Source of the DNA: Escherichia phage KEP4
Strand: one strand, 5' to 3'
Sequence record: PP047754
Length of the DNA stretch: 64,000 nt
Positions 4,314 to 61,240 of the stretch are shown piece after piece. Below the pieces are notes generated by a model. That model was given only the letters and a program-made list of their open reading frames with translations, was not told the DNA's origin and searched no databases. Numbering within the stretch: the first letter of the stretch is position 1; each line of letters opens with the position of its first letter. The position numbers and the translations under genes are program-made.

Positions 4314-4359
4314 ATTTCAGCTCACTAAATACTGAAAAATCGTTCAGAAGGAAACTATC

Positions 4360-5199
4360 ATGAAACCTGAATTGCAAAATCTGTTTGAAGGCGTTAACGG
4401 CATCAGCCCAGATTTCCTGGATAAAGTATCCAATTTGCTGGAATCGAAAGTTGAAGCGGCTCGTCTGAAAGCTATCCAAGAAACCGAAGCAGCTGGCAAC
4501 GTCGAGCGCCTGAATTTGGTAGAATCTCACCAGAAAGAAATCGCCGACCTGAAAGAAAATTTCATTCTGCAATTGGCTGGGAAAGTTGACTCATTCCTCA
4601 ACGCGGTGGTTGAAGAATGGGCTAACAAAAATGCCCCAGCTATTGACGCTCAGATCAAAACTGAAGCTGCTGAACGCTTCCTCACTGGTTTCTCCAACGT
4701 GCTGAAAGAAGCAGGTGTGAGTTTCGCTACTGACCCAGACGGTCAGATTGCTGCCCTCACCAGTCGCCTTGCTGAAGCAGAACAACGCGCCAGCATTGCC
4801 AATACTGAATTGGCTCAGCTCAAAGAAAGTGAAACCAAACGCCAGCGCAATGATGTCATTGATCGTATTTGTGAAGGTATGGTTGACACCAAGAAAGACA
4901 CTGTTGTCAACCTGCTGGAAGGTATTGAATTCCAGACCGAGTCTGAATTTGAATCCCGTGTGCGCACCTTCCGTAACCTGGTAGAAGGCAAAGATGACTT
5001 CTCTGATAAAGTCGGCAAAGACAATGAAAAAGGCAAGCCGGATGGCGACAATTCTGAAAAAGACATCAAAGAAGGTAAAAAACCGAAGAAAGAAGGTGAA
5101 GCCGACGATGATGACGATGACGATGATGACAAAGACGAAGTTGGCAAAGAAGTCAACGAAGCCGTCCGTCGCCAGATCAGTGCTTTGATGAACGGCTAA
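4360..5199 (+). CDS. prohead scaffold protein gp22
   Basis: 279 aa, coiled-coil-like, poly-Asp/Lys-rich C-terminal tail (EADDDDDDDDDKDE); directly upstream of the capsid gene. Confidence 0.7.
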   Translation: MKPELQNLFEGVNGISPDFLDKVSNLLESKVEAARLKAIQETEAAGNVERLNLVESHQKEIADLKENFILQLAGKVDSFLNAVVEEWANKNAPAIDAQIKTEAAERFLTGFSNVLKEAGVSFATDPDGQIAALTSRLAEAEQRASIANTELAQLKESETKRQRNDVIDRICEGMVDTKKDTVVNLLEGIEFQTESEFESRVRTFRNLVEGKDDFSDKVGKDNEKGKPDGDNSEKDIKEGKKPKKEGEADDDDDDDDDKDEVGKEVNEAVRRQISALMNG

Positions 5200-8870: not shown

Positions 8871-9188
8871 ATGGCTTGTAAAACACCAGAAATGAAATTA
8901 GTTGTTTCGTCAAAGGGGCGTCGCAGCCGCAGTCGAAATCTCATCACCCGTTTAGATATTCTACGTCAAAAATATCAAGGTCACAGCGTGTTCACACGCA
9001 TCCGTAACGCATTAAAGGAAGGGCGAATCGAGTTGGAGCTATATCGTCCAAACGGTTCGACTCGTGCGTATCAGACCACCGACGGTTTGCTGGAACTGAT
9101 CCGCCTCTCGGGAATGAGCATAGAACCTCGTTCATCAGGGACTCCCTTGTGCAGCCTGTATGTAATCGGCAATCTTGGGGCGCTGTGA
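8871..9188 (+). CDS. hypothetical protein, 105 aa
   Basis: ORF with GAGGA RBS. Confidence 0.45.
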   Translation: MACKTPEMKLVVSSKGRRSRSRNLITRLDILRQKYQGHSVFTRIRNALKEGRIELELYRPNGSTRAYQTTDGLLELIRLSGMSIEPRSSGTPLCSLYVIGNLGAL

Positions 9189-9193
9189 GTTCT

Positions 9194-9616
9194 ATGAAGA
9201 AGTATATCGTTCTTATAACGGGTTCCCGTTCTATAACTGAGCGGGATAAAATCTTCGCCAAACTGGATGAACTGTTAGATCCCCACGAGATCGAAACTTT
9301 TATAGAAGGTGAAGCGGTTGGTGTGGACTTGATATCTCGTGATTGGTGTGAAATCAATTATGTTCATGTTACACCAATGGAGATCCCTAAGAATTATCAC
9401 ACGATATATGGGAAAGGCGCAGGAAACCAACGTAACAAAGATATGTTAGACAAAGCTACAACCCTGGCCAAACAAAAAGGTCTTGAGGTCTTTGGAATTG
9501 CATTATGGGATGGTTCGTCTACTGGGACGCAAGACATGATTACCCGCATGAAAAAAGCAGGTGTCAATGTCAATATCACTCTCATGGGCAAACCCAAAAC
9601 CAAACGATTGTTATAA
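9194..9616 (+). CDS. SLOG/DUF2493-like Rossmann-fold protein, 140 aa
   Basis: N-terminal KKYIVLITGSRS motif typical of the LOG/DprA/YspA-type SLOG fold; assignment by motif only. Confidence 0.35.
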   Translation: MKKYIVLITGSRSITERDKIFAKLDELLDPHEIETFIEGEAVGVDLISRDWCEINYVHVTPMEIPKNYHTIYGKGAGNQRNKDMLDKATTLAKQKGLEVFGIALWDGSSTGTQDMITRMKKAGVNVNITLMGKPKTKRLL

Positions 9617-9619
9617 ATA
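9612..9619 (+). promoter_or_regulatory. T4-type late promoter TATAAATA
   Basis: Exact TATAAATA about 30 bp upstream of the 9651 ORF. Confidence 0.4.
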
Positions 9620-9650
9620 TGTTTGCCTTCACACCCATATGGAGTTAGCT

Positions 9651-9821
9651 ATGCTGCAATTAATTTTGATTCTTTGTGTCGCTTTTACCATGTACTTTCT
9701 GGCGCGAATCAGTTATATCACACTAAATGATCTGAAAGATACACCACGCGAACCTAAATTTATATTTCTAAAGAAATACACCAAAAAGTTCTGCGAGAAT
9801 TTTATCTATCATCTTCCGTGA
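9651..9821 (+). CDS. small hydrophobic membrane protein, 56 aa
   Basis: GGAG RBS; N-terminal hydrophobic helix LQLILILCVAFTMYFLA. Confidence 0.35.
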   Translation: MLQLILILCVAFTMYFLARISYITLNDLKDTPREPKFIFLKKYTKKFCENFIYHLP

Positions 9822-9822
9822 T

Positions 9823-9830
9823 TATAAATA
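9823..9830 (+). promoter_or_regulatory. T4-type late promoter TATAAATA
   Basis: Exact TATAAATA 22 bp upstream of ATG 9853, overlapping hairpin taccccc-aaaatt-gggggta. Confidence 0.45.
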
Positions 9831-9852
9831 CCCCCAAAATTGGGGGTATTTT

Positions 9853-10581
9853 ATGAACGCACAAATCTACGATGTCCTTTCCTCTGGTAATGCATTTAGC
9901 AACCCGCTTCCGTCCCTCTCCGGTCCCTCACAGGATTTAATCACCAGTGGTAGTACCAATATACCATTGATAACTGCCAACGCGACTCCGGAGATGCAGG
10001 CGGCTATGGTTGCTGGTGGACTAACACCAGAAAAACTCACAGCAGCCACCACCATGTATAGCGCCGCCAACACGGGGATAACGACACTGAACACATATGG
10101 AGACCAAAGTATCAATGACGCGTATTCTCGCATCGGTACTTCCGTGTCATACAAATCAGGTCTGAAGGGTATATCACGAGAGCCAAACAATTGTGATTTG
10201 ATCAACAAGGCTTTTGGTGTTGTTCAGGATTTAGGACGCCAATGGCTGAATGCTATGGAAGGTGCTCTACAGACCGTAACAAACAAGATATCGGAATTGT
10301 ATGACATGATTATGGAAGGTGCCTCAGAAGGGATGGCAAAACTACAGCAATTGGCTGCTGAAGTAACAGGACATATCAATGAGGCAATAACCGCCGTCAA
10401 TGGAGTTATAAACGATATCACCGATGGGATAGCTGCAGAACTTGCTCATATTGAAAGTATGATCAAAGAATGTCTAAACTTCTCTTTTGCGAATGTTCTT
10501 GGAGAATGGGCTAAAGATCTCTGTGCTGGAGGCGTTATTGATAAAATAGGGACTCCAGAATTAAAAGAGTCCCTGAAATAA
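9853..10581 (+). CDS. hypothetical late protein, 242 aa
   Basis: ORF immediately downstream of a consensus late promoter. Confidence 0.5.
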   Translation: MNAQIYDVLSSGNAFSNPLPSLSGPSQDLITSGSTNIPLITANATPEMQAAMVAGGLTPEKLTAATTMYSAANTGITTLNTYGDQSINDAYSRIGTSVSYKSGLKGISREPNNCDLINKAFGVVQDLGRQWLNAMEGALQTVTNKISELYDMIMEGASEGMAKLQQLAAEVTGHINEAITAVNGVINDITDGIAAELAHIESMIKECLNFSFANVLGEWAKDLCAGGVIDKIGTPELKESLK

Positions 10582-11202
10582 TCAATGTCTAGCGGGGAGA
10601 ACTCCCACTGGTTCGATACCTTCCATCACCAGGGAGTTCACCCCAACATCACTCATTCGAATCCATACTTTACCGCCTGGTCTTATTTCATAGATGTTCA
10701 TTTCATTACCCACAGCAGATCCATTAACGAAAACACCCTGAGTGGCAATTCGGATCGGAGATTTGGTGTTATTAACTATCTGAAATGATATTGCAACGTC
10801 TCTGGTGATTTCTACGTCCCTTGCTTGAGTATTCCTTCTGAGTTTGTCAAAGAAAGAAGGGTTGAAAGTCGCTATGATGCTATTATTCTGAGAGTAATAA
10901 ATACTTGCGGATAGATATGGGATCTTTCCTTCGTCACCTTTCCTCAATAGGGGAATCGTGGTTTTCCAGTATGGTCTCAGTGACTGGTTGTTATCATCAA
11001 AACAACCAACAGCTTGAAGAGTCTGGAAGTTCTGAAAATCAGATACTACTTGATTCAGAATATTTTTATTGCATTTATCAATGTCGGCTGAGATGTTAAC
11101 AGGTATGGTTCTGATTTCAGGATCCCAGAGGTCGGTTACAGAAATGACGGACGTGACAAAGATACGGCAACTTGTGAGTGCAAGCACCATTATCATCGTC
11201 AT
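10582..11202 (-). CDS. membrane-anchored or lipoprotein-like protein (start uncertain)
   Basis: 232-codon reverse ORF with no competing forward ORF; hydrophobic N-terminus MTMIMVLALTSC with lipobox-like LTSC; ORF-track start 11280 is a TTG, ATG at 11202 chosen. Confidence 0.4.
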   Translation of the reverse strand: MTMIMVLALTSCRIFVTSVISVTDLWDPEIRTIPVNISADIDKCNKNILNQVVSDFQNFQTLQAVGCFDDNNQSLRPYWKTTIPLLRKGDEGKIPYLSASIYYSQNNSIIATFNPSFFDKLRRNTQARDVEITRDVAISFQIVNNTKSPIRIATQGVFVNGSAVGNEMNIYEIRPGGKVWIRMSDVGVNSLVMEGIEPVGVLPARH

Positions 11203-11265
11203 GATCCATTTTCTGAATCCGCGTATCAGGAACACTAAAACGTTCTCCACAGCAAAGGTGCTAAC

Positions 11266-11760
11266 ATGACAGGTGTACAATTCAAAAACGAAAATCCTAA
11301 TTTCGCGGCTTCCGATAAATGGCGCTTAACTATCGGAGACCTAATATTGCTTACTCGTTCAATACATGACTTCAGTATTCCTGGAGTGTATTCTGAAGGT
11401 ATCGAGGGACCATCCCCTGGCGATGTGCTCAACTCCATACCTTCAGAACGTCTCACGTATGACCCCATCGTATTTACGTTCGTTATCGATGAGAGTTGGT
11501 ACAACTGGGAACAGATTTACAATTGGATTGCGTCCAATGCTGGATCTGATTTAGCTGTTAGCCGTGACATCACCATCGACCTTCTTGATAACATGAATCG
11601 ACCTGTTGGTCTACAATTGTTGTTGGAAGAAGCCCGTCCCACAGCTTTGGACAACGTATTGGTGGATGTGGATGCTGCGGTTCCCCAACTGGTCACGACT
11701 GTCACGTTCAAATATTTGAAACTGACTCCGACTCGCGTCACCCGCGAAATTGATAAATAA
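11266..11760 (+). CDS. hypothetical protein, 164 aa
   Basis: ORF with AAAGGTG RBS. Confidence 0.5.
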   Translation: MTGVQFKNENPNFAASDKWRLTIGDLILLTRSIHDFSIPGVYSEGIEGPSPGDVLNSIPSERLTYDPIVFTFVIDESWYNWEQIYNWIASNAGSDLAVSRDITIDLLDNMNRPVGLQLLLEEARPTALDNVLVDVDAAVPQLVTTVTFKYLKLTPTRVTREIDK

Positions 11761-11801
11761 TAAGTTATAATACAGAGAGTTGAAACAGCAGGGAATAAAT
11801 C

Positions 11802-12257
11802 ATGAGCGAAACAAAACTTGAAACGATGAAAACCGAAGATATAATGGCAGAATTGGAGCCTCTTATTTCGGTAAATCCTGAAGACATGAACTTAGACCAA
11901 ATGTCATTGAAAATTGGTCGTTCGTGGATGACTGTGCAACGCCATTATATTCGTGAAGGAAGATATCTGGAGTATCTAACTGGCAAATTCCGCCAAATAG
12001 ATCTCTATTTACGCCGATTTTATGCAGGGGAATTGCCGCCCAACGTTTATGTTGAACGCCCATTAAAAGTTCGACCCCTGAAATCTGATATAGATGTTTG
12101 GGTAAAAGCAGATGATGATTATATCGAATTGTCTAGCATGCTTCAAGAGCAGAAAGCCAAAGTCAAGTTTATCGAAAGTTGCTTAGATCGTTTGAACAAA
12201 CTCGGATATGAAGTGAAGAATGCTATTGATTGGCGAAAATATTTGGATGGGATGTAA
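11802..12257 (+). CDS. hypothetical protein, 151 aa
   Basis: ORF with ATG start. Confidence 0.5.
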   Translation: MSETKLETMKTEDIMAELEPLISVNPEDMNLDQMSLKIGRSWMTVQRHYIREGRYLEYLTGKFRQIDLYLRRFYAGELPPNVYVERPLKVRPLKSDIDVWVKADDDYIELSSMLQEQKAKVKFIESCLDRLNKLGYEVKNAIDWRKYLDGM

Positions 12258-13003
12258 TGGTTTCTCTACAGGCTTTGCGCAAACTTAATGACTTTGAAAA
12301 TCGTCATCATACATTTCAGCAATATTCCTTGCCGTTTAAGGAACTGACTTGCGTAACTACCGAAAATGGTCGTCACTATGTTTCCCCCACTGGAGTCAAA
12401 CTAACTTCAGTGACGACCATGTTAGGGCGTACTGGTGACCACACATGGTTAGAAGCCTGGCGGGACAAGTTGGGGCATGAAGCTGCTGATATAGAAACAC
12501 ATCGTTGCGCAGACCGTGGGGAAAAACTTCATTTGGCTTGTGAGTTGTATCTCAAAAACAGACCAATGAAGGAAGTTCTGGAAGCTGCAGGGGAATACGT
12601 GTTTATGTTCAAACAGGTTTTCCCCTACCTTAACAAAATGAGCAAGATATATGCACAAGAGATTCCATTATATAGCGAAGTCCTGGGTCTTGCTGGTCGT
12701 GTTGACCTCATCGGGGTTTACGAAGGAATTCCAAGCATAATCGATTTCAAAACATCTAACACCCTAAAAACTCGAAGCATGATAGAAGATTATAGTATTC
12801 AATTGTGTCTATACTCAGTCATGTTTCAACAAATGTTTAATGTCAAGATAGAGCGTTTAATCAATATTATATCCAACGAAAATGCCCTTGTTCCCACCAT
12901 AATCGAATTCGATCGCAAAGACGTTATTTCTAAAATGTTTGACCGTGTCCGTCTGTATCACAAAATGGACAAAGAACAGAAAGGAATCTGGGCGGATCGC
13001 TAA
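12257..13003 (+). CDS. PD-(D/E)XK family nuclease candidate (RecB/Cas4-like), 248 aa
   Basis: GRVDLIGVY ... IIDFKTS (D...E/D.K) and QLCLY motifs; start ATG overlaps previous stop (TAATG). Confidence 0.45.
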   Translation: MVSLQALRKLNDFENRHHTFQQYSLPFKELTCVTTENGRHYVSPTGVKLTSVTTMLGRTGDHTWLEAWRDKLGHEAADIETHRCADRGEKLHLACELYLKNRPMKEVLEAAGEYVFMFKQVFPYLNKMSKIYAQEIPLYSEVLGLAGRVDLIGVYEGIPSIIDFKTSNTLKTRSMIEDYSIQLCLYSVMFQQMFNVKIERLINIISNENALVPTIIEFDRKDVISKMFDRVRLYHKMDKEQKGIWADR

Positions 13004-13032
13004 ATACTCCATAATATTGGGGGAAATTAGTG

Positions 13033-14532
13033 ATGTCTGAGATCCAAATAGTCAAAGTGAACGAAGTTAGAATGCGGATCCTCGCCGAGGATTATATCCG
13101 TGAAGAACTCAACGATTACTTCAAATTTGAAGATCCTAATTTCCAACCGAATCCGTTCAGTAAATGGGACGGCGTAGTGCGGCTGTTCACAAAGAGTTCT
13201 GGGCTTATCGACATCGGCCTGTTATTTGAGGTGTTCAAATTCTGTAAGATGAACGGTTACACCATCAAATTAGATCCGACCTTAAAATATATTCAAGATA
13301 TTCCGGATGAAGAAATTCATGCGTTCATCGATACATTGAATGCGGTGTACCGAGACGAAAACAAACAATATCAAAAAGCGATTGTCCGTGATTATCAATT
13401 TGATTCTGTTGCCACAGCAATACGCCAAAGCAGATGTGTCCTCGAAGCTGCCACGAGTGCTGGCAAATCCTTTATTTTGTACATCATGGCGCGTTACTAC
13501 AGGCAACGCAGAGATGCCCTCGAAAGTAATCTGAGGACGTTAATTGTTGTACCATCCATTCATTTGGTGACTCAGTTGTATGACAACTTCGAAGAATATA
13601 GCCACGGGACAGAATGGAAGCCATTGATGAACGTCCAGACAATATACGAAGGGGCAACGAAAGAGATTTTCAAACCCATAGTTATTTCAACTTGGCAAGG
13701 TATCCAGAACCAACCCAAAGAGTGGTTCCATCAATTTGGAGATATCGTCGTTGACGAAGTACATACATCAAAATCAGATAAATTGTCTTACATCTTGAAC
13801 AACTGTATTAACGCTGATCAACGTTTGGGAGTAACCGGAACCCTGGCGAATACAAAGGTCGCAGGGTTACAAGTCGTTGCTCACTTTGGCGCATATCATA
13901 AAATTATTACAGCGCGCGATTTAATCGATCTAGGATATGCGGCAGACATCAATGTTAATATGATTGAAGTCATACATCCTATGGCAGACTGTATTGAAAT
14001 GCACGGTGCTGAGTATCAAAAGGAAATAGAATTCCTCATTGCTAACGAACGCCGAAATGAATTGATAGCTCGAATGGCTCTATCTTTGAAAGGGAACGTG
14101 GCAGTCATGTTCGAACGTATCGATGCACACATGATGTTGGTTTATGAAATGCTATCGGCAGTCAAGAAAAACGTATTCGTCATCAACGGGGAAGTCAAGA
14201 CAGAAGTTCGTAAACAGATTCAGGCTGCTATGGAAGAAGGGGAAGATATAACACTGTTGGCATCATATGGTACTATGCAACAGGGCGTATCTATCAAAAA
14301 ACTCCATCATCTGATATTGGCCCATCCCAGCAAATCTTATATCCGTGTTATACAGACATTGGGGCGTTTGATGCGTCAGCATTCCTCTAAGGATGTTGCG
14401 CGAATCTGGGACCTGGTAGACAACCTGCGTTACAACGGTTCCTACAACCATGCTCTCAGGCATTCTCATGAGAGATATAAATTTTATCTTATGGAGCGCC
14501 ACCCTGTTAAAATGAAAAAAGTGGCGCTCTAA
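13033..14532 (+). CDS. uvsW: UvsW-like SF2 DNA/RNA helicase
   Basis: 499 aa; Walker A LEAATSAGKS, DEVH box (VVDEVHT); T4 UvsW size; lies after the capsid region as in T4. Confidence 0.75.
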   Translation: MSEIQIVKVNEVRMRILAEDYIREELNDYFKFEDPNFQPNPFSKWDGVVRLFTKSSGLIDIGLLFEVFKFCKMNGYTIKLDPTLKYIQDIPDEEIHAFIDTLNAVYRDENKQYQKAIVRDYQFDSVATAIRQSRCVLEAATSAGKSFILYIMARYYRQRRDALESNLRTLIVVPSIHLVTQLYDNFEEYSHGTEWKPLMNVQTIYEGATKEIFKPIVISTWQGIQNQPKEWFHQFGDIVVDEVHTSKSDKLSYILNNCINADQRLGVTGTLANTKVAGLQVVAHFGAYHKIITARDLIDLGYAADINVNMIEVIHPMADCIEMHGAEYQKEIEFLIANERRNELIARMALSLKGNVAVMFERIDAHMMLVYEMLSAVKKNVFVINGEVKTEVRKQIQAAMEEGEDITLLASYGTMQQGVSIKKLHHLILAHPSKSYIRVIQTLGRLMRQHSSKDVARIWDLVDNLRYNGSYNHALRHSHERYKFYLMERHPVKMKKVAL

Positions 14533-14537
14533 CCATT

Positions 14538-14903
14538 TCAAATATCTTGATTCACATAGGCGGGGGTTGCCTCGCCTTCTTTGTTGGAACCAAATAAACA
14601 GTCGATCGTGCCAATACATTGTTGTAGCACTTTCGGCTCAAGAATCTGAGAAAACAATTCTTCATTAGATGCCAGCAGTGGAACAACTTTCACTTCCCGC
14701 GCCTGGCCTTGTTGAATAATGCCAACATACAGACCTTTGTTATTTGGGAGTAATGGTATCACCAACATCGGTGACACAATAAACCCCGATGTACAGAAAA
14801 GGCTTTGTAAATAAACGCCTTTTAATGACGAACGTTGTTCTGATATGGAAAGAATTGCTTCTTGGTCTTCCCCTACTGCGTATAAACCAACAAATTGCTT
14901 CAT
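14538..14903 (-). CDS. hypothetical protein, 121 aa, reverse strand
   Basis: ATG-initiated reverse ORF convergent on uvsW; no competing forward ORF. Confidence 0.4.
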   Translation of the reverse strand: MKQFVGLYAVGEDQEAILSISEQRSSLKGVYLQSLFCTSGFIVSPMLVIPLLPNNKGLYVGIIQQGQAREVKVVPLLASNEELFSQILEPKVLQQCIGTIDCLFGSNKEGEATPAYVNQDI

Positions 14904-28558: not shown

Positions 28559-29248
28559 ATGAAACGTTTAATCCTCGGGGTTGTGCTGGCAGGTCTGGCA
28601 TTACCCGCCGCCGCCAAGCTGAACTCCACAGGTGACAAACTGTGGTCTGATCTTTCCTACTGTGCTGGGTTCTCCCAGGCGGTCGCTATCGACAAGTCCG
28701 GTTCCATAGAGAATTTCGCTGAACTTTGGAACACGGGTAACGTCTCCACTGCTGTTGTTAATGCTGGGATTGAGTTCAACCGTTACAAACAGGGAGCCTA
28801 CAACTTGAAAGGCTACCTGAATGACGATGAATTTAACCGAGGAGGCATGGAGGCTGGCGATCTCATCATGACTGGCCGTATGGGCACACAAGGCCGTATG
28901 ACTGTAAGGCAATGCCGTTCTCTCCCCTCTCCGGCATTACAGAAGGGTGTGCAAATCGGGCGTCGACATTTGGATCTGATCAATGATGGCAACCAATGCA
29001 TCAAGGTGTTTGAATATAGTGCCGACCAAGAATCAGATCGACGTTTGAAAAAGGAATGGCGGACACGTGCCCTTGGATTGAGAGCATGGCTCGTAGAAAA
29101 CGATTATTACTACGAGGATCGTGTTCAGAACGGATTGAAAGATCTTTCTACTAATTTGTCTGTCAATCTAGACGACCCAAGGCTTTCGCGTGAACTCAAG
29201 CAAACACGGATTGACTGCGACAATATGATGAAGGAGAACGAAAGATGA
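28559..29248 (+). CDS. secreted/periplasmic protein with signal peptide, 229 aa
   Basis: AAGGAGA RBS; N-terminus MKRLILGVVLAGLALPAAAK is a classic Sec signal peptide. Confidence 0.55.
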   Translation: MKRLILGVVLAGLALPAAAKLNSTGDKLWSDLSYCAGFSQAVAIDKSGSIENFAELWNTGNVSTAVVNAGIEFNRYKQGAYNLKGYLNDDEFNRGGMEAGDLIMTGRMGTQGRMTVRQCRSLPSPALQKGVQIGRRHLDLINDGNQCIKVFEYSADQESDRRLKKEWRTRALGLRAWLVENDYYYEDRVQNGLKDLSTNLSVNLDDPRLSRELKQTRIDCDNMMKENER

Positions 29249-29565
29249 GAAACATAATATTCTTGTTATTCTTTTCTATGTTGGCATCATTCCAAGTTGT
29301 GGCAACTCCGGCTAGCAAATTGAATATCTGTGCGGCCTGGTTGTCTACTTATCAACAATTTCACCCTGATGATAAAGATACATCCATCCTTTTATCAGAT
29401 TATGAAGGTGAGTTGAAACGCCTTGATCTCTACAGCGTGGATCAAATAGAGAATGCTTTGGATTTGCCAATGATGGAGTCCGCTGCCGACAATAGCAAAC
29501 AGACGATCAAAGATCTGACTATGTGTCGGGAAATAGCGACTAATTTCGTTGGAAATCAAAGATAA
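29245..29565 (+). CDS. small secreted/periplasmic protein with signal peptide, 106 aa
   Basis: Overlaps previous gene by ATGA; N-terminus MRNIIFLLFFSMLASFQVVA. Confidence 0.5.
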   Translation: MRNIIFLLFFSMLASFQVVATPASKLNICAAWLSTYQQFHPDDKDTSILLSDYEGELKRLDLYSVDQIENALDLPMMESAADNSKQTIKDLTMCREIATNFVGNQR

Positions 29566-46164: not shown

Positions 46165-46215
46165 GTCATAGCCCCTTCGGGGGCTAAATACATCAAAATC
46201 CTTAGGAGATCCACG

Positions 46216-46761: not shown

Positions 46762-46773
46762 TTATAAAATACA

Positions 46774-46805
46774 ATCCCCCTAAATACAGGGGGATTTTCT
46801 TTTTA
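46774..46805 (+). terminator. rho-independent terminator
   Basis: atccccct-aaatac-agggggat hairpin followed by TTTCTTTTT. Confidence 0.55.
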
Positions 46806-50049: not shown

Positions 50050-50118
50050 TCGACACTAAATCCTCAAGTTCGACTTTCACTTTAAATACCTTCGCATACA
50101 TTGCGGAGGTATTTTCTT

Positions 50119-51020: not shown

Positions 51021-51860
51021 ATGCAATCTGCGTCTAAAGTTGTATCCATGAAGCCAGCGAAGACAAAATCTGCTCGTAAGAAAGACACCATCCAGAAGGA
51101 AGAAGACTGGATGAAGTTTTCCAAAGGCGATTTCAAAATTGCTCCGTTCAATGGCCTCTCAGAAAATCAGAACCTCGCATATCAATCCGCACTCAATGAA
51201 CATCTCACTATCGCTATCGGTCCGGCAGGTACAGGCAAATCCTATTGTGGTGCGTCCGCTGCTGCCAAGCATCTGATTGACAAAACAATCAACAAGATCA
51301 TCATCACACGTTCTCCCCTTCCAACTGGCACCACAGCGGGGTTCCGGCCTGGTGACACATATGAAAAACTGATGCCTTATTTGATGCCGCTCATACAGAC
51401 ATTCAAAAAGGTTCTCAAAACAGATACGGGTTCCGACGGTTTCTTCAACTATCTGTGGGAGAAACGCATCATAGAAATTCAAGACCTTGAAACTGTAAAA
51501 GGGATGACTTTCGATGATTGTTTCCTGATTATCGAAGAGGCGCAGGAATGCGATATGGAGCAGCTGAAAAACTTGTTGACTCGTGCTTCAGATTCTTCGT
51601 ACATCTTCGTAAATGGAGATATCAAACAGTCTAACAAGCGACTGCGTGATAGTGCGTTACAGACGTATGTGGATTCCTTTAAAGACTTCAACAACAAGCT
51701 GGAAACAGGTTCCTTGCAAATTGACGGTGTAGAAATCGGGGATGAATATCCAGAGTGGGTTCAACCATTCAGCATCATCGAATTCGATAAGTCTGATCGT
51801 AATGGTCGCGGCAACTTCACCCGCCTGATGTTAGAAATTAACGACCTGTACAACATTTAA
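51021..51860 (+). CDS. phoH: PhoH-like ATPase
   Basis: Walker A GPAGTGKS, Walker B-like FLIIEEAQ, overall PhoH architecture. Confidence 0.8.
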   Translation: MQSASKVVSMKPAKTKSARKKDTIQKEEDWMKFSKGDFKIAPFNGLSENQNLAYQSALNEHLTIAIGPAGTGKSYCGASAAAKHLIDKTINKIIITRSPLPTGTTAGFRPGDTYEKLMPYLMPLIQTFKKVLKTDTGSDGFFNYLWEKRIIEIQDLETVKGMTFDDCFLIIEEAQECDMEQLKNLLTRASDSSYIFVNGDIKQSNKRLRDSALQTYVDSFKDFNNKLETGSLQIDGVEIGDEYPEWVQPFSIIEFDKSDRNGRGNFTRLMLEINDLYNI

Positions 51861-51944
51861 ATACCACACGAACTTCCCCGCCGCCTTCAATCCATGGAGG
51901 CGGTGTATAATAACAGCCTGCATAAACACAAACCGAGGATCGCT

Positions 51945-61191: not shown

Positions 61192-61240
61192 TCCGGTCTA
61201 AATACCCATAACACAATGAAACTTCGTTATGGGTATTTTT

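What the first reader, a model, noticed from the sequence alone, without database searches (positions are those of the whole stretch)
10582..11202. Reverse-strand membrane/lipoprotein gene embedded in a forward-strand late-gene run
The only substantial ORF in 10582-11265 is on the - strand, convergent with the late gene at 9853-10581 and divergent from 11266-11760. The product has a hydrophobic N-terminus with lipobox-like LTSC. Counter-oriented membrane genes inside structural clusters are often morons providing exclusion or host-interaction functions. The start codon is uncertain.
Basis: seen in the sequence. Interest (0 to 1): 0.45.

Follow-up and report, generated by a model that had tools for sequence, protein, structure and literature searches.

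The report
Conserved phage outer-membrane lipoprotein gene
This is a real, strongly conserved reverse-strand gene of Vi01-like (Ackermannviridae) phages that encodes an exported lipoprotein of still-unknown function (Pfam DUF7424); it is a core family gene already annotated in public genomes, not a recently acquired add-on.

Summary
The minus-strand ORF is real, and the window is a Kuttervirus (99.5% identical to Salmonella phage ISTP3). The product matches Pfam DUF7424 (E=1e-60) and is already annotated 'putative lipoprotein' in some records. The uncertain start resolves to GTG at 11235 (217 aa). Only this start gives a rule-conforming lipoprotein signal (MFLIRGFRKWIMTMIMVLALTS|C). The GTG and a GGAG 6-9 nt upstream are conserved across genera. 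Purifying selection is strong (dN/dS 0.04-0.14). The gene is not a moron. It occurs in 348 phage records against 356 for the adjacent gp3-like core gene. It is always counter-oriented and head-to-head with that gene, down to 22% identity in Vibrio phages, and its composition is normal. Two virion proteomes detect both flanking products but not this one. The confident AlphaFold model has no relative outside DUF7424, so function is inferred. Other DUF7424 lipoproteins sit beside a prophage CI-like repressor, beside tail-fibre or tail-tip genes, in an AbiH-bearing island, or as chromosomal orphans. This favours an envelope-acting exclusion role, like Llp/Cor/Rtp45 but unrelated to them. Conserved T4-type late-promoter cores (TAAATAC) embedded face-to-face in this gene and the gp3-like gene suggest late, overlapping transcription.

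The parts
10582..11235 (-). DUF7424 prolipoprotein gene: 217 codons plus the TGA stop, GTG start; the mature protein is 195 aa, about 21.9 kDa
   Evidence: ORF. Pfam PF24199 at 9.5e-61 and phrog_3832 at 2e-109. Homologues are 213-219 aa with aligned N-termini. dN/dS is 0.04-0.14. Coordinates checked.
11170..11235 (-). Signal peptide, residues 1-22: basic n-region MFLIRGFRK followed by hydrophobic core WIMTMIMVLAL
   Evidence: Only the GTG-11235 start passes the PROSITE PS51257 rule. The n-, h- and lipobox regions are conserved in alignment A1.
11167..11178 (-). Lipobox L-T-S-C. Cys23 (11167-11169) is the predicted lipidated first residue of the mature protein. The +2 residue is Arg, not Asp.
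   Evidence: Cys is nearly invariant in A1 and A3. Distant Serratia and Vibrio homologues keep LIGGC-R, ISSC-K and LMSC-R. 79 of 95 family members pass PS51257, and +2 is K or R in 57 of 79.
11245..11248 (-). Shine-Dalgarno GGAG, 9 nt before the GTG start
   Evidence: GGAG(A) lies 6-9 nt upstream of a GTG in the window, Sajous1, Sa157lw, Klebsiella phi1_146041, Serratia IME250, LIMEstone1 and Serratia 3M.
11002..11073 (-). Segment bounded by the codons of Cys55 (11071-11073) and Cys78 (11002-11004), a family-conserved cysteine pair and inferred periplasmic disulfide
   Evidence: Both are invariant in A1. The equivalent C49/C81 are invariant in the bacterial alignment A2.
11470..11476 (-). TAAATAC, a T4-type late-promoter-like core on the gene's own strand. 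It lies 241 nt upstream of the GTG and is embedded antisense in the gp3-like ORF (codons P-I-V-F).
   Evidence: Present at -239 to -249 in all six enterobacterial lineages examined. It coincides with the longest run of codon-identical codons in the gp3-like gene, against a background codon identity of 0.19. The motif class is validated. Function as a promoter is not shown.
10898..10904 (+). TAAATAC late-promoter-like core on the + strand. It is embedded antisense inside the lipoprotein ORF (codons S-I-Y of the invariant SIYYS motif), 362 nt upstream of the gp3-like ATG.
   Evidence: Conserved in 7 enterobacterial relatives while flanking synonymous sites vary; absent in Serratia 3M and Vibrio. 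It coincides with the second-longest codon-identical run in the lipoprotein gene. Function is not shown.
9853..10581 (+). Convergent neighbour: DUF7217 virion protein gene. Its TAA stop abuts the lipoprotein gene's TGA.
   Evidence: Pfam PF23854 at 2e-101. The orthologues LIMEstone1 ORF129 and Sajous1 gp166 were detected in virions. Stop codons checked.
9823..9852 (+). Late promoter TATAAATAC fused to a hairpin plus T-run (CCCCCAAAATTGGGGGTATTTT), immediately before the 9853 ATG. Transcripts from here would read antisense through the lipoprotein gene, because no terminator separates the genes.
   Evidence: Sequence. Motif statistics. No above-chance terminator in 10582-11265.
11266..11760 (+). 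Divergent partner: gp3-like tail-completion / sheath-stabiliser gene. Its start is 30 nt from the lipoprotein start, and the two Shine-Dalgarno sequences lie back to back in that spacer.
   Evidence: phrog_45 at 3e-33. Annotated as gp3-like and MS-confirmed in LIMEstone1 ORF127 and Sajous1 gp168. Spacer sequence.

Best explanation
The gene encodes a prolipoprotein of the uncharacterised DUF7424 family. Shown or near-shown from sequence: translation starts at a conserved, weak GTG codon. The 22-residue signal peptide with lipobox LTS|C is what the host Sec, Lgt, LspA and Lnt pathway processes. Inferred: because residue +2 is Arg rather than Asp, the Lol system should carry the mature 21.9-kDa protein to the inner leaflet of the outer membrane. 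The modelled fold starts directly at the lipidated Cys with no tether, so the domain should sit flush against that membrane, stabilised by a Cys55-Cys78 disulfide. It is a core, vertically inherited, non-virion gene of Ackermannviridae. It has its own transcription unit, opposite to the surrounding late genes. Most likely mechanism (inferred, not shown): during infection the lipoprotein binds a conserved component of the host envelope from the periplasmic side. It would thereby block entry or adsorption of further phage on infected cells and debris, that is, superinfection exclusion or receptor masking. This would work like T5 Llp, Cor or Rtp45 while being structurally unrelated and about three times larger. 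Timing is probably late: T4-type TAAATAC cores lie upstream on its strand. My layered confidence is about 0.9 that it is a real exported lipoprotein, about 0.85 that it is a core non-virion gene rather than a moron, and about 0.35-0.4 that its role is exclusion or receptor masking.
For: Gene reality and start codon:
- The window is a Kuttervirus.
- Strong DUF7424 and phrog_3832 matches.
- 53 close homologues, mostly 213-219 aa, with a conserved basic n-region, h-region and lipobox.
- Only the GTG-11235 start satisfies PROSITE PS51257.
- GTG plus GGAG is conserved in 7 genomes.
- dN/dS is 0.036-0.14.

Lipoprotein character:
- It is retained at 22-36% identity in Serratia and Vibrio phages.
- It is retained in about 80 distant family representatives.
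- Three cysteines are family-invariant.

Core gene with fixed synteny.

Non-virion:
- LIMEstone1 Table 2 lists ORF127 and ORF129 but not the orthologue ORF128 (PMC3296691).
- Sajous1 Table 6 lists gp166 and gp168 but not the orthologue gp167 (PMC10892097).

Contexts of other DUF7424 genes that fit exclusion:
- 68 nt downstream of a CI-like repressor, same strand, in a lambdoid prophage.
- Between Baseplate_J and fibre-like genes of a myovirus prophage.
- Counter-oriented right after tail-tip genes.
- In an integrase/AlpA island between an AAA_15/21 ATPase and AbiH.

Known paradigm: small periplasm-facing outer-membrane lipoproteins Llp and Rtp45 block FhuA and LptDE (PMC9586334, PMC12685063).

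Structure: the confident model (pLDDT 89.8) has its first strand beginning at Cys23 to Ile31.

Late-type cores:
- Motif validation.
- Vibrio phage K476 has CTAAATAC 23 nt before its orthologue's start.
Against: - Known exclusion lipoproteins are about 6-8 kDa, are encoded next to the receptor-binding protein gene, and are made early. In Ackermannviridae this gene is next to a tail-completion gene, far from the tailspikes, and the only promoter-like signals are of late type.
- Exclusion genes are usually accessory and fast-evolving. This gene is core and under purifying selection similar to its neighbours.
- About half of the sampled bacterial copies are orphan chromosomal genes with no mobile-element context.
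- 13 of 79 family members have Asp at +2, so outer-membrane targeting is not universal.
- No sigma70-like promoter was found, and no transcript data exist.
- Absence from virion mass spectrometry is negative evidence.
Confidence: 0.45

Rival explanations
1. It is an envelope lipoprotein with a role other than exclusion. Examples: remodelling or stabilising the outer membrane, interfering with LPS, capsule or O-antigen export, or binding a small ligand or lipid during infection. Bacterial copies would do the same job for the cell.
Against: No ligand-binding family or pocket was identified, and all fold matches are at noise-to-weak level. Bacterial copies are non-syntenic and never in operons, which looks like horizontally moved accessory genes rather than housekeeping genes.
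Confidence: 0.27
2. It is a lysis or egress factor acting on the outer membrane late in infection. It could be an unconventional o-spanin-like partner or an outer-membrane disruptor.
For: It is a predicted outer-membrane lipoprotein like o-spanins. The promoter-like signals are late type. The phage's annotated 'Rz-like spanin' (29245-29565) has no canonical lipobox, so the outer-membrane partner of the spanin system is not obvious.
Against: A two-gene, 4-nt-overlapping candidate spanin module exists 17 kb away (28559-29565). This protein is a 195-aa globular domain, not a short proline-rich o-spanin. It has no adjacent i-spanin and no C-terminal membrane helix. Family members next to a prophage repressor, in an AbiH island, or as chromosomal orphans are not in lysis cassettes.
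Confidence: 0.12
3. It is a virion or tail-assembly component, as its position between two structural genes might suggest.
For: It is flanked by two MS-confirmed virion protein genes, and its head-to-head pairing with the gp3-like gene is invariant.
Against: A conserved export and lipidation signal would remove it from the cytoplasm, where tails assemble. It was not detected in the LIMEstone1 or Sajous1 virion proteomes although both flanking products were. In Vibrio phages the DUF7217 neighbour is absent but the lipoprotein gene stays.
Confidence: 0.04
4. It is a recently acquired moron, or not a gene at all, with the functional element being the forward strand or a spacer in the late transcript.
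For: Its opposite orientation inside a late cluster is a classic moron hallmark. Late transcripts from 9823 probably read antisense across it.
Against: There is no forward ORF above 73 codons. The minus frame has dN/dS of 0.04-0.14. It is present in 348 of about 356 related genomes at the same site. Composition is normal, and its dS matches the right-hand neighbours.
Confidence: 0.02

Closest known systems
Pfam DUF7424 (PF24199) / PHROG 3832; GenBank 'putative (conserved) lipoprotein' of Kuttervirus phages such as bering_40 and Marshall
   Same: This is that family. The match is full length at 205 bits against a 27-bit cut-off. A 100% identical protein is already in NCBI/UniRef (P0001), and the gene is annotated at the same place and strand in public genomes.
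   Different: Nothing is known about the family's function. Many records use a wrong, shorter ATG start or truncate the gene.
T5 Llp (FhuA-blocking superinfection-exclusion lipoprotein)
   Same: It is a phage-encoded lipoprotein of a lytic phage that is periplasm-facing on the outer membrane, non-virion, disulfide-containing, and encoded in or next to the tail gene region (PMC9586334). Two temperate-phage DUF7424 genes sit beside fibre or tail-tip genes.
   Different: Llp is about 6-7 kDa, is expressed early and lies next to the receptor-binding protein gene pb5. DUF7424 is 21.9 kDa with a different fold, has no sequence or structure similarity to anything characterised, lies next to a tail-completion gene, and carries late-type promoter signals.
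Cor (T1/phi80/N15) and Rtp45 (LptDE-binding) exclusion lipoproteins
   Same: They are small outer-membrane lipoproteins that act from the periplasmic side on an outer-membrane machine to stop receptor-binding-protein binding (PMC12685063). That is the same predicted compartment and topology.
   Different: They are about 6 kDa, are encoded next to the receptor-binding protein gene, and each is specific to one receptor. The DUF7424 target is unknown, and the gene is conserved across phages that use very different glycan receptors.
o-spanin (lambda Rz1 type)
   Same: It is an outer-membrane lipoprotein made late by a lytic phage.
   Different: o-spanins are short, proline-rich, and embedded in or adjacent to the i-spanin gene. 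This is a large globular protein far from the candidate spanin pair at 28559-29565.
Prophage exclusion genes co-transcribed with the repressor (lambda rexAB and P22 sieB type arrangement; from general knowledge)
   Same: One DUF7424 gene lies 68 nt downstream of a CI-like repressor gene on the same strand in a lambdoid prophage.
   Different: That is a distant bacterial family member (about 16-20% identity). The arrangement is a single observed case and its expression was not tested.

Membership tests
Bacterial (pro)lipoproteins (PROSITE PS51257 / Lgt-LspA substrates) | N-terminal signal with K/R in the first 7 residues, an uncharged h-region, the lipobox pattern [LIVMFWSTAG]2-[LIVMFYSTAGCQ]-[AGS]-C, and Cys at position 15-35 | tested here: met
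   Met only with the GTG-11235 start (Cys23). All ATG or TTG alternatives fail.
Bacterial (pro)lipoproteins (PROSITE PS51257 / Lgt-LspA substrates) | Conservation of the lipobox Cys among homologues | tested here: met
   Cys23 is nearly invariant in A1 and A3. 79 of 95 members pass the full rule, and most failures are truncated annotations or near-misses.
Bacterial (pro)lipoproteins (PROSITE PS51257 / Lgt-LspA substrates) | Actual diacylglyceryl modification, LspA cleavage and outer-membrane localisation | not testable with these tools
   This needs globomycin or palmitate labelling and cell fractionation. Outer-membrane sorting is inferred from Arg at +2 (E. coli '+2 rule', general knowledge).
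Pfam DUF7424 (PF24199) | Score above the curated gathering threshold over the full domain | tested here: met
   205.4 bits against a 27-bit cut-off; residues 15-205 of the 206-aa query match profile positions 2-195 of 196.
Llp/Cor/Rtp45-type superinfection-exclusion lipoproteins | Sequence or fold homology to Llp, Cor or Rtp45 | tested here: not met
Llp/Cor/Rtp45-type superinfection-exclusion lipoproteins | Small size (about 6-8 kDa mature) | tested here: not met
   The mature protein is 195 aa and 21.9 kDa.
Llp/Cor/Rtp45-type superinfection-exclusion lipoproteins | Gene adjacent to the receptor-binding protein gene | tested here: not met
   In Ackermannviridae the neighbours are the gp3-like and DUF7217 genes. 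It is adjacent to fibre or tail-tip genes only in two distant temperate-phage homologues.
Llp/Cor/Rtp45-type superinfection-exclusion lipoproteins | Early expression | tested here: inconclusive
   No sigma70-like promoter was found. Late-type TAAATAC cores lie upstream. One uncultured relative has TGCTATAAT instead. No transcript data were found.
Llp/Cor/Rtp45-type superinfection-exclusion lipoproteins | Binds a phage receptor and abolishes adsorption or infection | not testable with these tools
   Requires expression and efficiency-of-plating or adsorption assays, plus pull-downs.
o-spanin | Short lipoprotein encoded within, overlapping or adjacent to an i-spanin gene | tested here: not met
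   It is 195 aa mature with no i-spanin neighbour. The candidate spanin pair is at 28559-29565.
Moron (accessory insert in a phage structural cluster) | Variable presence among otherwise related genomes | tested here: not met
   348 records carry it against 356 with the adjacent core gene, with the same host distribution. Position and orientation are the same in all loci inspected.
Moron (accessory insert in a phage structural cluster) | Atypical composition or an evolutionary history distinct from the flanks | tested here: not met
   G+C is 41.7% against 38.8-45.1% for the flanks. dS of 1.35 matches the right-hand neighbours at 0.90-1.33. Identities track the neighbours across genera.
Moron (accessory insert in a phage structural cluster) | Own promoter and terminator flanking the insert | tested here: inconclusive
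   A promoter-like core lies 241 nt upstream inside the neighbouring ORF. No terminator is present and the stop codons abut.
T4-type late genes of Ackermannviridae | TAAATA(C) late-promoter core upstream on the coding strand | tested here: inconclusive
   The core is present and conserved at synonymous sites, but at -241 rather than the usual -18 to -36. It is at the canonical distance in Vibrio phage K476. Promoter activity was not tested.

The most novel reading that the evidence does not exclude
DUF7424 is a new, structurally unprecedented class of about 20-kDa envelope lipoproteins that phages and mobile elements use for superinfection exclusion or defence against a conserved outer-membrane machine. 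The class is fixed as a core gene in all lytic Ackermannviridae and scattered as a portable gene in prophages (immunity region, tail-fibre neighbourhood) and defence-like islands. In Ackermannviridae, two face-to-face late promoters, each buried in the other gene's coding sequence, would set its expression and that of the gp3-like tail gene. This would give about 570 nt of complementary 5' leaders, and hence transcriptional interference or antisense control.
Probability: 0.25. Interest if true: 0.6.

Novelty: already known. Interest (0 to 1): 0.33.

Why it matters
Ackermannviridae (Vi01, CBA120, Det7, LIMEstone and others) are widely isolated and used for biocontrol and therapy. This is their one family-wide, non-virion, exported lipoprotein, and nobody knows what it does. 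If it excludes other phages or alters the envelope, it would affect cocktail design, progeny yield and host physiology, and it would give a function to a DUF family that also occurs in prophages and bacterial chromosomes. On the practical side, the analysis fixes the start codon: a conserved GTG that many GenBank records miss, so they lose the signal peptide. It also defines the late-promoter core (C/T)TAAATAC for this phage group.

Tried and rejected
- Other libraries. NCBIfam and PADLOC returned no hits.
- Literature. No paper mentions DUF7424, and no Ackermannviridae RNA-seq was found.
- The 'gp214-217 ferrojan-horse operon' of Harris et al. 2024 looked as if it might include this gene ('tail completion protein, molybdate-binding domain protein'). 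In GenBank it is a different locus, and the true orthologue is gp167.
- Sigma70-type promoter. None is convincing or conserved upstream, in the window or in relatives.
- Plasmid (TraT-like) association. The only 'plasmid' hits are two mislabelled 4-Mb Proteus chromosomes.
- The search for related loci with the divergent bacterial alignment failed because it lacked a conserved stretch.
- Disulfide geometry could not be checked because model coordinates were not exposed.
- Allelic-replacement idea. The lipoprotein's high dS within Kuttervirus is shared by its right-hand neighbours, so it does not have a separate history.
Full report
**What the window is.** The 4 kb around the finding is 99.5% identical to Salmonella phage ISTP3 and at least 99% identical to dozens of Kuttervirus (Vi01-like, Ackermannviridae) genomes. 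The local gene order is as follows:
- a SLOG/YspA-like gene (9149-9616);
- a small ORF;
- the DUF7217 virion protein gene (9853-10581, +);
- the target gene (-);
- the gp3-like tail-completion/sheath-stabiliser gene (11266-11760, +);
- uvsY, a PD-(D/E)XK exonuclease and the uvsW helicase.

**Checking the observation.** A minus-strand open frame runs from 11280 down to a TGA at 10582-10584. No plus-strand frame inside 10582-11265 stays open for more than 73 codons. The stop codons of the convergent pair abut (TAA 10579-10581, TGA 10582-10584). The LTSC lipobox is there. The product hits Pfam DUF7424 at 9.5e-61 and PHROG 3832 at 2e-109. The same gene is annotated 'putative lipoprotein' in phages bering, kage, heyday, barely, LPST94 and pertopsoe, and 'hypothetical protein' elsewhere.

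**Start codon.** Most homologues found in the 5.8-billion-protein collection are 213-219 aa. This includes a 217-aa protein with 100% identity over the aligned 206 residues. In the alignment the extra N-terminal residues are conserved. They form a basic n-region (M-x-L-M-R-G-I-x-R), a hydrophobic core and then L-[TVNAS]-[SG]-C. In the window this corresponds to GTG at 11233-11235. Of six candidate starts, only this one satisfies the PROSITE PS51257 lipoprotein rule, with Cys at position 23 and Arg within the first seven residues. A GGAG(A) lies 6-9 nt upstream of a GTG in the window, Sajous1, Sa157lw, Klebsiella phi1_146041, Serratia IME250, LIMEstone1 and Serratia 3M. The gene is therefore 10582-11235, encoding 217 aa and a 195-aa, 21.9-kDa mature protein. 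A non-ATG start conserved across genera suggests deliberately modest translation; that is my inference. Public records are inconsistent about the start. It is annotated as 615 nt in bering, ISTP3 and Sa157lw, 624 nt in IME250, 480 nt in PH4, 309 nt in 3M, and 651-654 nt in Sajous1, LIMEstone1 and phi1_146041.

**It is a real gene under selection.** Nei-Gojobori dN/dS on the minus frame gives these values:
- 0.036 for window vs Sa157lw, at dS 1.41;
- 0.052 for Klebsiella phage vs Serratia IME250;
- 0.09-0.14 for LIMEstone1 vs the others.

Against Sajous1, its dS (1.35) and omega (0.039) resemble those of gp3-like, UvsY, the exonuclease and UvsW (dS 0.90-1.33, omega 0.013-0.032). It therefore shares the history of its right-hand neighbours.

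**It is core, not a moron.**
- tblastn finds the gene in 348 phage records. The adjacent gp3-like protein is found in 356, with matching host counts: Salmonella 164/164, Klebsiella 44/44, Escherichia 28/28, Dickeya 19/19, Serratia 10/10, Vibrio 64/69.
- In every locus inspected the gene is counter-oriented and head-to-head with the gp3-like gene. This holds in Kuttervirus, Taipeivirus, Limestonevirus, an Aglimvirinae phage, Miltonvirus, Campanilevirus, unclassified Vibrio phages and two uncultured Ackermannviridae-like contigs.
- In Vibrio phages the DUF7217 gene is missing or replaced, but the pairing of lipoprotein and gp3-like gene persists.
- Amino-acid identity falls in step with DUF7217 and somewhat faster than gp3-like, UvsY and the exonuclease.
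- G+C is ordinary.

**Lipoprotein character is the most conserved feature.** At 22-36% identity the Serratia 3M, Vibrio K476 and Vibrio YC proteins still have a signal peptide, a lipobox Cys and then Arg or Lys. A full HMMER scan of 1.84 billion representatives with the phage profile found 86 proteins. Nearly all are 190-240 aa with a lipoprotein signal followed by a C-[KRD]-x-h-x-[ST]-x-h-x-h-S-[DE]-L motif. All those tested score as DUF7424. Across phage and bacterial members the invariant or near-invariant positions are the lipobox Cys, two further cysteines (Cys55 and Cys78 here), an N-[DN]-T motif and an L-S-[DN]-V motif. From this I infer a periplasmic disulfide. From Arg at +2 I infer Lol-dependent sorting to the outer membrane (E. 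coli '+2 rule', general knowledge). However, 13 of 79 family members carry Asp at +2.

**Structure.** With 22 close homologues, AlphaFold gave pLDDT 71. With 95 diverse family members it gave pLDDT 89.8 and pTM 0.84. The model is an alpha/beta N-terminal part followed by a beta-sandwich. Its first strand begins at the lipidated Cys, so there is no flexible tether. Fold and sequence comparisons gave the following:
- Foldseek vs the PDB found nothing (best E 0.25).
- BFVD returns only DUF7424 proteins.
- A PDB sequence-profile search, NCBIfam and PADLOC are empty.

No function can be transferred by homology.

**Not a virion protein.** The LIMEstone1 virion proteome lists ORF127 (gp3-like) and ORF129 (DUF7217) but not ORF128, the orthologue, which its authors annotated only with 'putative signal peptide present' (PMC3296691). 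The Sajous1 CsCl-virion proteome lists gp166 and gp168 but not gp167, the orthologue (PMC10892097). Export and lipidation would in any case remove the protein from the cytoplasmic assembly compartment.

**Context of other family members.** The sampled neighbourhoods fall into two groups.

Mobile-element contexts:
- a Paracandidimonas lambdoid prophage, with the gene 68 nt downstream of a CI-like repressor (phrog_12107, 3e-16), on the same strand and opposite a Cro-like gene;
- an E217-like myovirus prophage, with the gene between Baseplate_J and large wedge/Big_2 fibre-like genes;
- a phage contig with the gene counter-oriented immediately after tail-tip genes;
- an integrase/AlpA island, with the gene between an AAA_15/AAA_21 ATPase and AbiH;
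- a copy about 1.2 kb from a Mu-like early region.

Orphan chromosomal genes: next to nap, next to gshA (one of these with a Schlafen/AlbA_2 gene nearby), and in Proteus mirabilis between folD, GrpB and ars genes.

The positions next to a repressor and next to fibre genes, and the AbiH island, are where exclusion and defence genes typically live. The orphans are non-syntenic, which suits horizontally moved accessory genes. They also leave room for a housekeeping-type envelope role.

**Transcription.**
- No sigma70-like promoter is found or conserved upstream of the gene.
- The heptamer TAAATAC is enriched in the window: 14 copies against 6.5 +/- 2.4 expected, and 0 of 100 shuffles reach 14.
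- Seven copies lie 18-36 nt upstream of plus-strand ORF starts at 4360, 9853, 13030, 46216, 50101, 51894 and 61229.
- The LIMEstone1 authors' annotated late -10 before uvsW is exactly TAAATA, at the homologous site.

TAAATAC is therefore this phage group's T4-like late-promoter core.

Two further copies are embedded in coding sequence.
- One is on the minus strand at 11470-11476, 241 nt upstream of the lipoprotein GTG, inside gp3-like codons P-I-V-F. It is present at -239 to -249 in all six enterobacterial lineages compared.
- The other is on the plus strand at 10898-10904, 362 nt upstream of the gp3-like ATG, inside lipoprotein codons S-I-Y. It is present in seven enterobacterial relatives while flanking synonymous sites vary.

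Only 16-19% of amino-acid-invariant codons are codon-identical across five genomes. Yet the longest codon-identical run in the gp3-like gene (CCC-ATC-GTA-TTT) is the first site, and the second-longest in the lipoprotein gene (AGT-ATT) is the second. In Vibrio phage K476 a CTAAATAC sits 23 nt before the orthologue's start. An uncultured relative has CTAAATAT at -59, and another has an extended -10-like TGCTATAAT.

My reading is a hypothesis, not a result. The lipoprotein gene is probably a late gene. In enterobacterial Ackermannviridae the two head-to-head genes may be driven by face-to-face late promoters about 570 bp apart, giving complementary 5' leaders. Independently of that, transcripts from the late promoter at 9823-9831 should read antisense through the whole lipoprotein gene, because no terminator separates the convergent genes.

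**Mechanism.** Steps shown or strongly supported by sequence are a real gene, a conserved GTG start with a Shine-Dalgarno sequence, a conserved lipoprotein signal, core status, and non-detection in virions. Inferred steps are Sec/Lgt/LspA/Lnt processing, Lol transport to the outer membrane's inner leaflet, a Cys55-Cys78 disulfide, and late expression.

The functional step is the least certain. I favour an envelope-acting exclusion or receptor-masking role (about 0.35-0.4), for four reasons:
- the compartment and topology match Llp and Rtp45, which act from the periplasmic face on FhuA and LptDE;
- the protein is non-virion;
- it has its own transcription unit;
- its relatives sit at classic exclusion or defence positions.

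Against this stand its large size, unrelated fold, core status, ordinary evolutionary rate, late-type signals, distance from the tailspike genes, and the orphan bacterial copies.

The main rival is a different envelope function (about 0.27). A lysis/egress role (about 0.12) is weakened by a candidate spanin pair at 28559-29565, although that pair's 'Rz-like' member lacks a canonical lipobox.

**Comparison and novelty.** It is a member of Pfam DUF7424, with the membership test met. It is identical to proteins already in public databases and is annotated as a putative lipoprotein, so the feature itself is already known. It is not a member of the Llp/Cor/Rtp45 families: homology, size and gene position were tested and not met. 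It may nevertheless work like them. It is not an o-spanin and not a moron. The additions here are:
- the corrected start codon;
- the demonstration that the gene is family-core with invariant synteny;
- the breadth of DUF7424 as a lipoprotein family shared with prophages and bacterial chromosomes;
- a confident model with no known fold relative;
- the late-promoter core and its two embedded, conserved copies.

**Verdict.** This is an ordinary, already-annotated gene as an object and an open question as to function. Interest is moderate-low (0.33). The most novel reading not excluded is a new class of exclusion lipoproteins with face-to-face embedded late promoters. I put that at about 0.25 probability and 0.6 interest if true.

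Noticed in passing
window 4326-4332, 9825-9831, 13001-13007, 46185-46191, 50083-50089, 51858-51864, 61199-61205 (+ strand): (C/T)TAAATAC lies 18-36 nt upstream of seven ORF starts and is about 2-fold enriched in the window (14 copies vs 6.5 +/- 2.4 expected). It behaves as the T4-like late-promoter core of this phage. The LIMEstone1 authors annotated TAAATA as the late -10 at the homologous site before uvsW.
   Followed up: yes
window 9823-9852; about 46170-46191; about 46772-46800; 61199-61235: Several late-promoter cores are fused to G+C-rich hairpins with T-runs, for example TATAAATACCCCCAAAATTGGGGGTATTTT directly before the 9853 ATG and CCCCC-TAAATAC-AGGGGGATTTT. These look like composite terminator/late-promoter modules, in which a transcript started at the promoter would lack the 5' half of the hairpin.
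   Followed up: partly
window 10579-10584: The stop codons of the convergent DUF7217 (+) and lipoprotein (-) genes abut with no intergenic base and no terminator. Each transcript must therefore run antisense into the other gene.
   Followed up: partly
public records: L001 7582-8196, L002 4583-5197, L003 3846-4154, L014 1540-2154, L015 1666-2145, L016 1531-2154: The start of this gene is annotated inconsistently. Several GenBank records use internal ATGs or truncate the ORF and so lose the signal peptide. LIMEstone1, Sajous1 and Klebsiella phi1_146041 use the conserved GTG.
   Followed up: yes
window 28559-29248 and 29245-29565 (+): This is a candidate spanin pair with a 4-nt overlap. The first gene is annotated i-spanin in phage bering but is 'unknown' in PHROGs and starts with what looks like a cleavable signal peptide. 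The 106-aa second gene matches the PHROG 'Rz-like spanin' family but has no canonical lipobox (LNIC). The outer-membrane component of lysis in this phage is therefore not clearly identified.
   Followed up: partly
L007 3642-7301 and L008 11478-13389 (Salmonella phage Sajous1, MW021757): Harris et al. 2024 describe Sajous1 gp214 as a tail-completion protein heading a 'gp214-217 ferrojan-horse operon'. In the GenBank record gp214 is a 795-aa hypothetical protein, and the tail-completion protein is gp168. The paper's text and the record's numbering or labels do not agree.
   Followed up: partly
window 9149-10581 vs 10582-14532, compared with L008: Against Sajous1, synonymous divergence is 0.39-0.55 for the genes left of the lipoprotein gene and 0.90-1.35 for the lipoprotein gene and everything to its right. 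This suggests a recombination boundary near the abutting stop codons.
   Followed up: no
L024 (NZ_OL790811.1) and NZ_OL790812.1: Two 4-Mb Proteus mirabilis records in the plasmid collection are evidently chromosomes labelled as plasmids. They carry an orphan DUF7424 gene between folD, GrpB and ars genes.
   Followed up: partly
window about 14538-14903 (-), by homology to bering_45 (L001 11538-11903): A second counter-oriented gene, annotated as a clamp-loader subunit, follows uvsW. Isolated minus-strand genes inside plus-strand runs are therefore a recurring feature of this genome region.
   Followed up: no
L009 7201-8660: In a Paracandidimonas lactea lambdoid prophage, the DUF7424 gene lies immediately downstream of a CI-like repressor gene and opposite a Cro/YdaS-like gene. 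This is the position typical of lysogen-expressed exclusion genes.
   Followed up: partly
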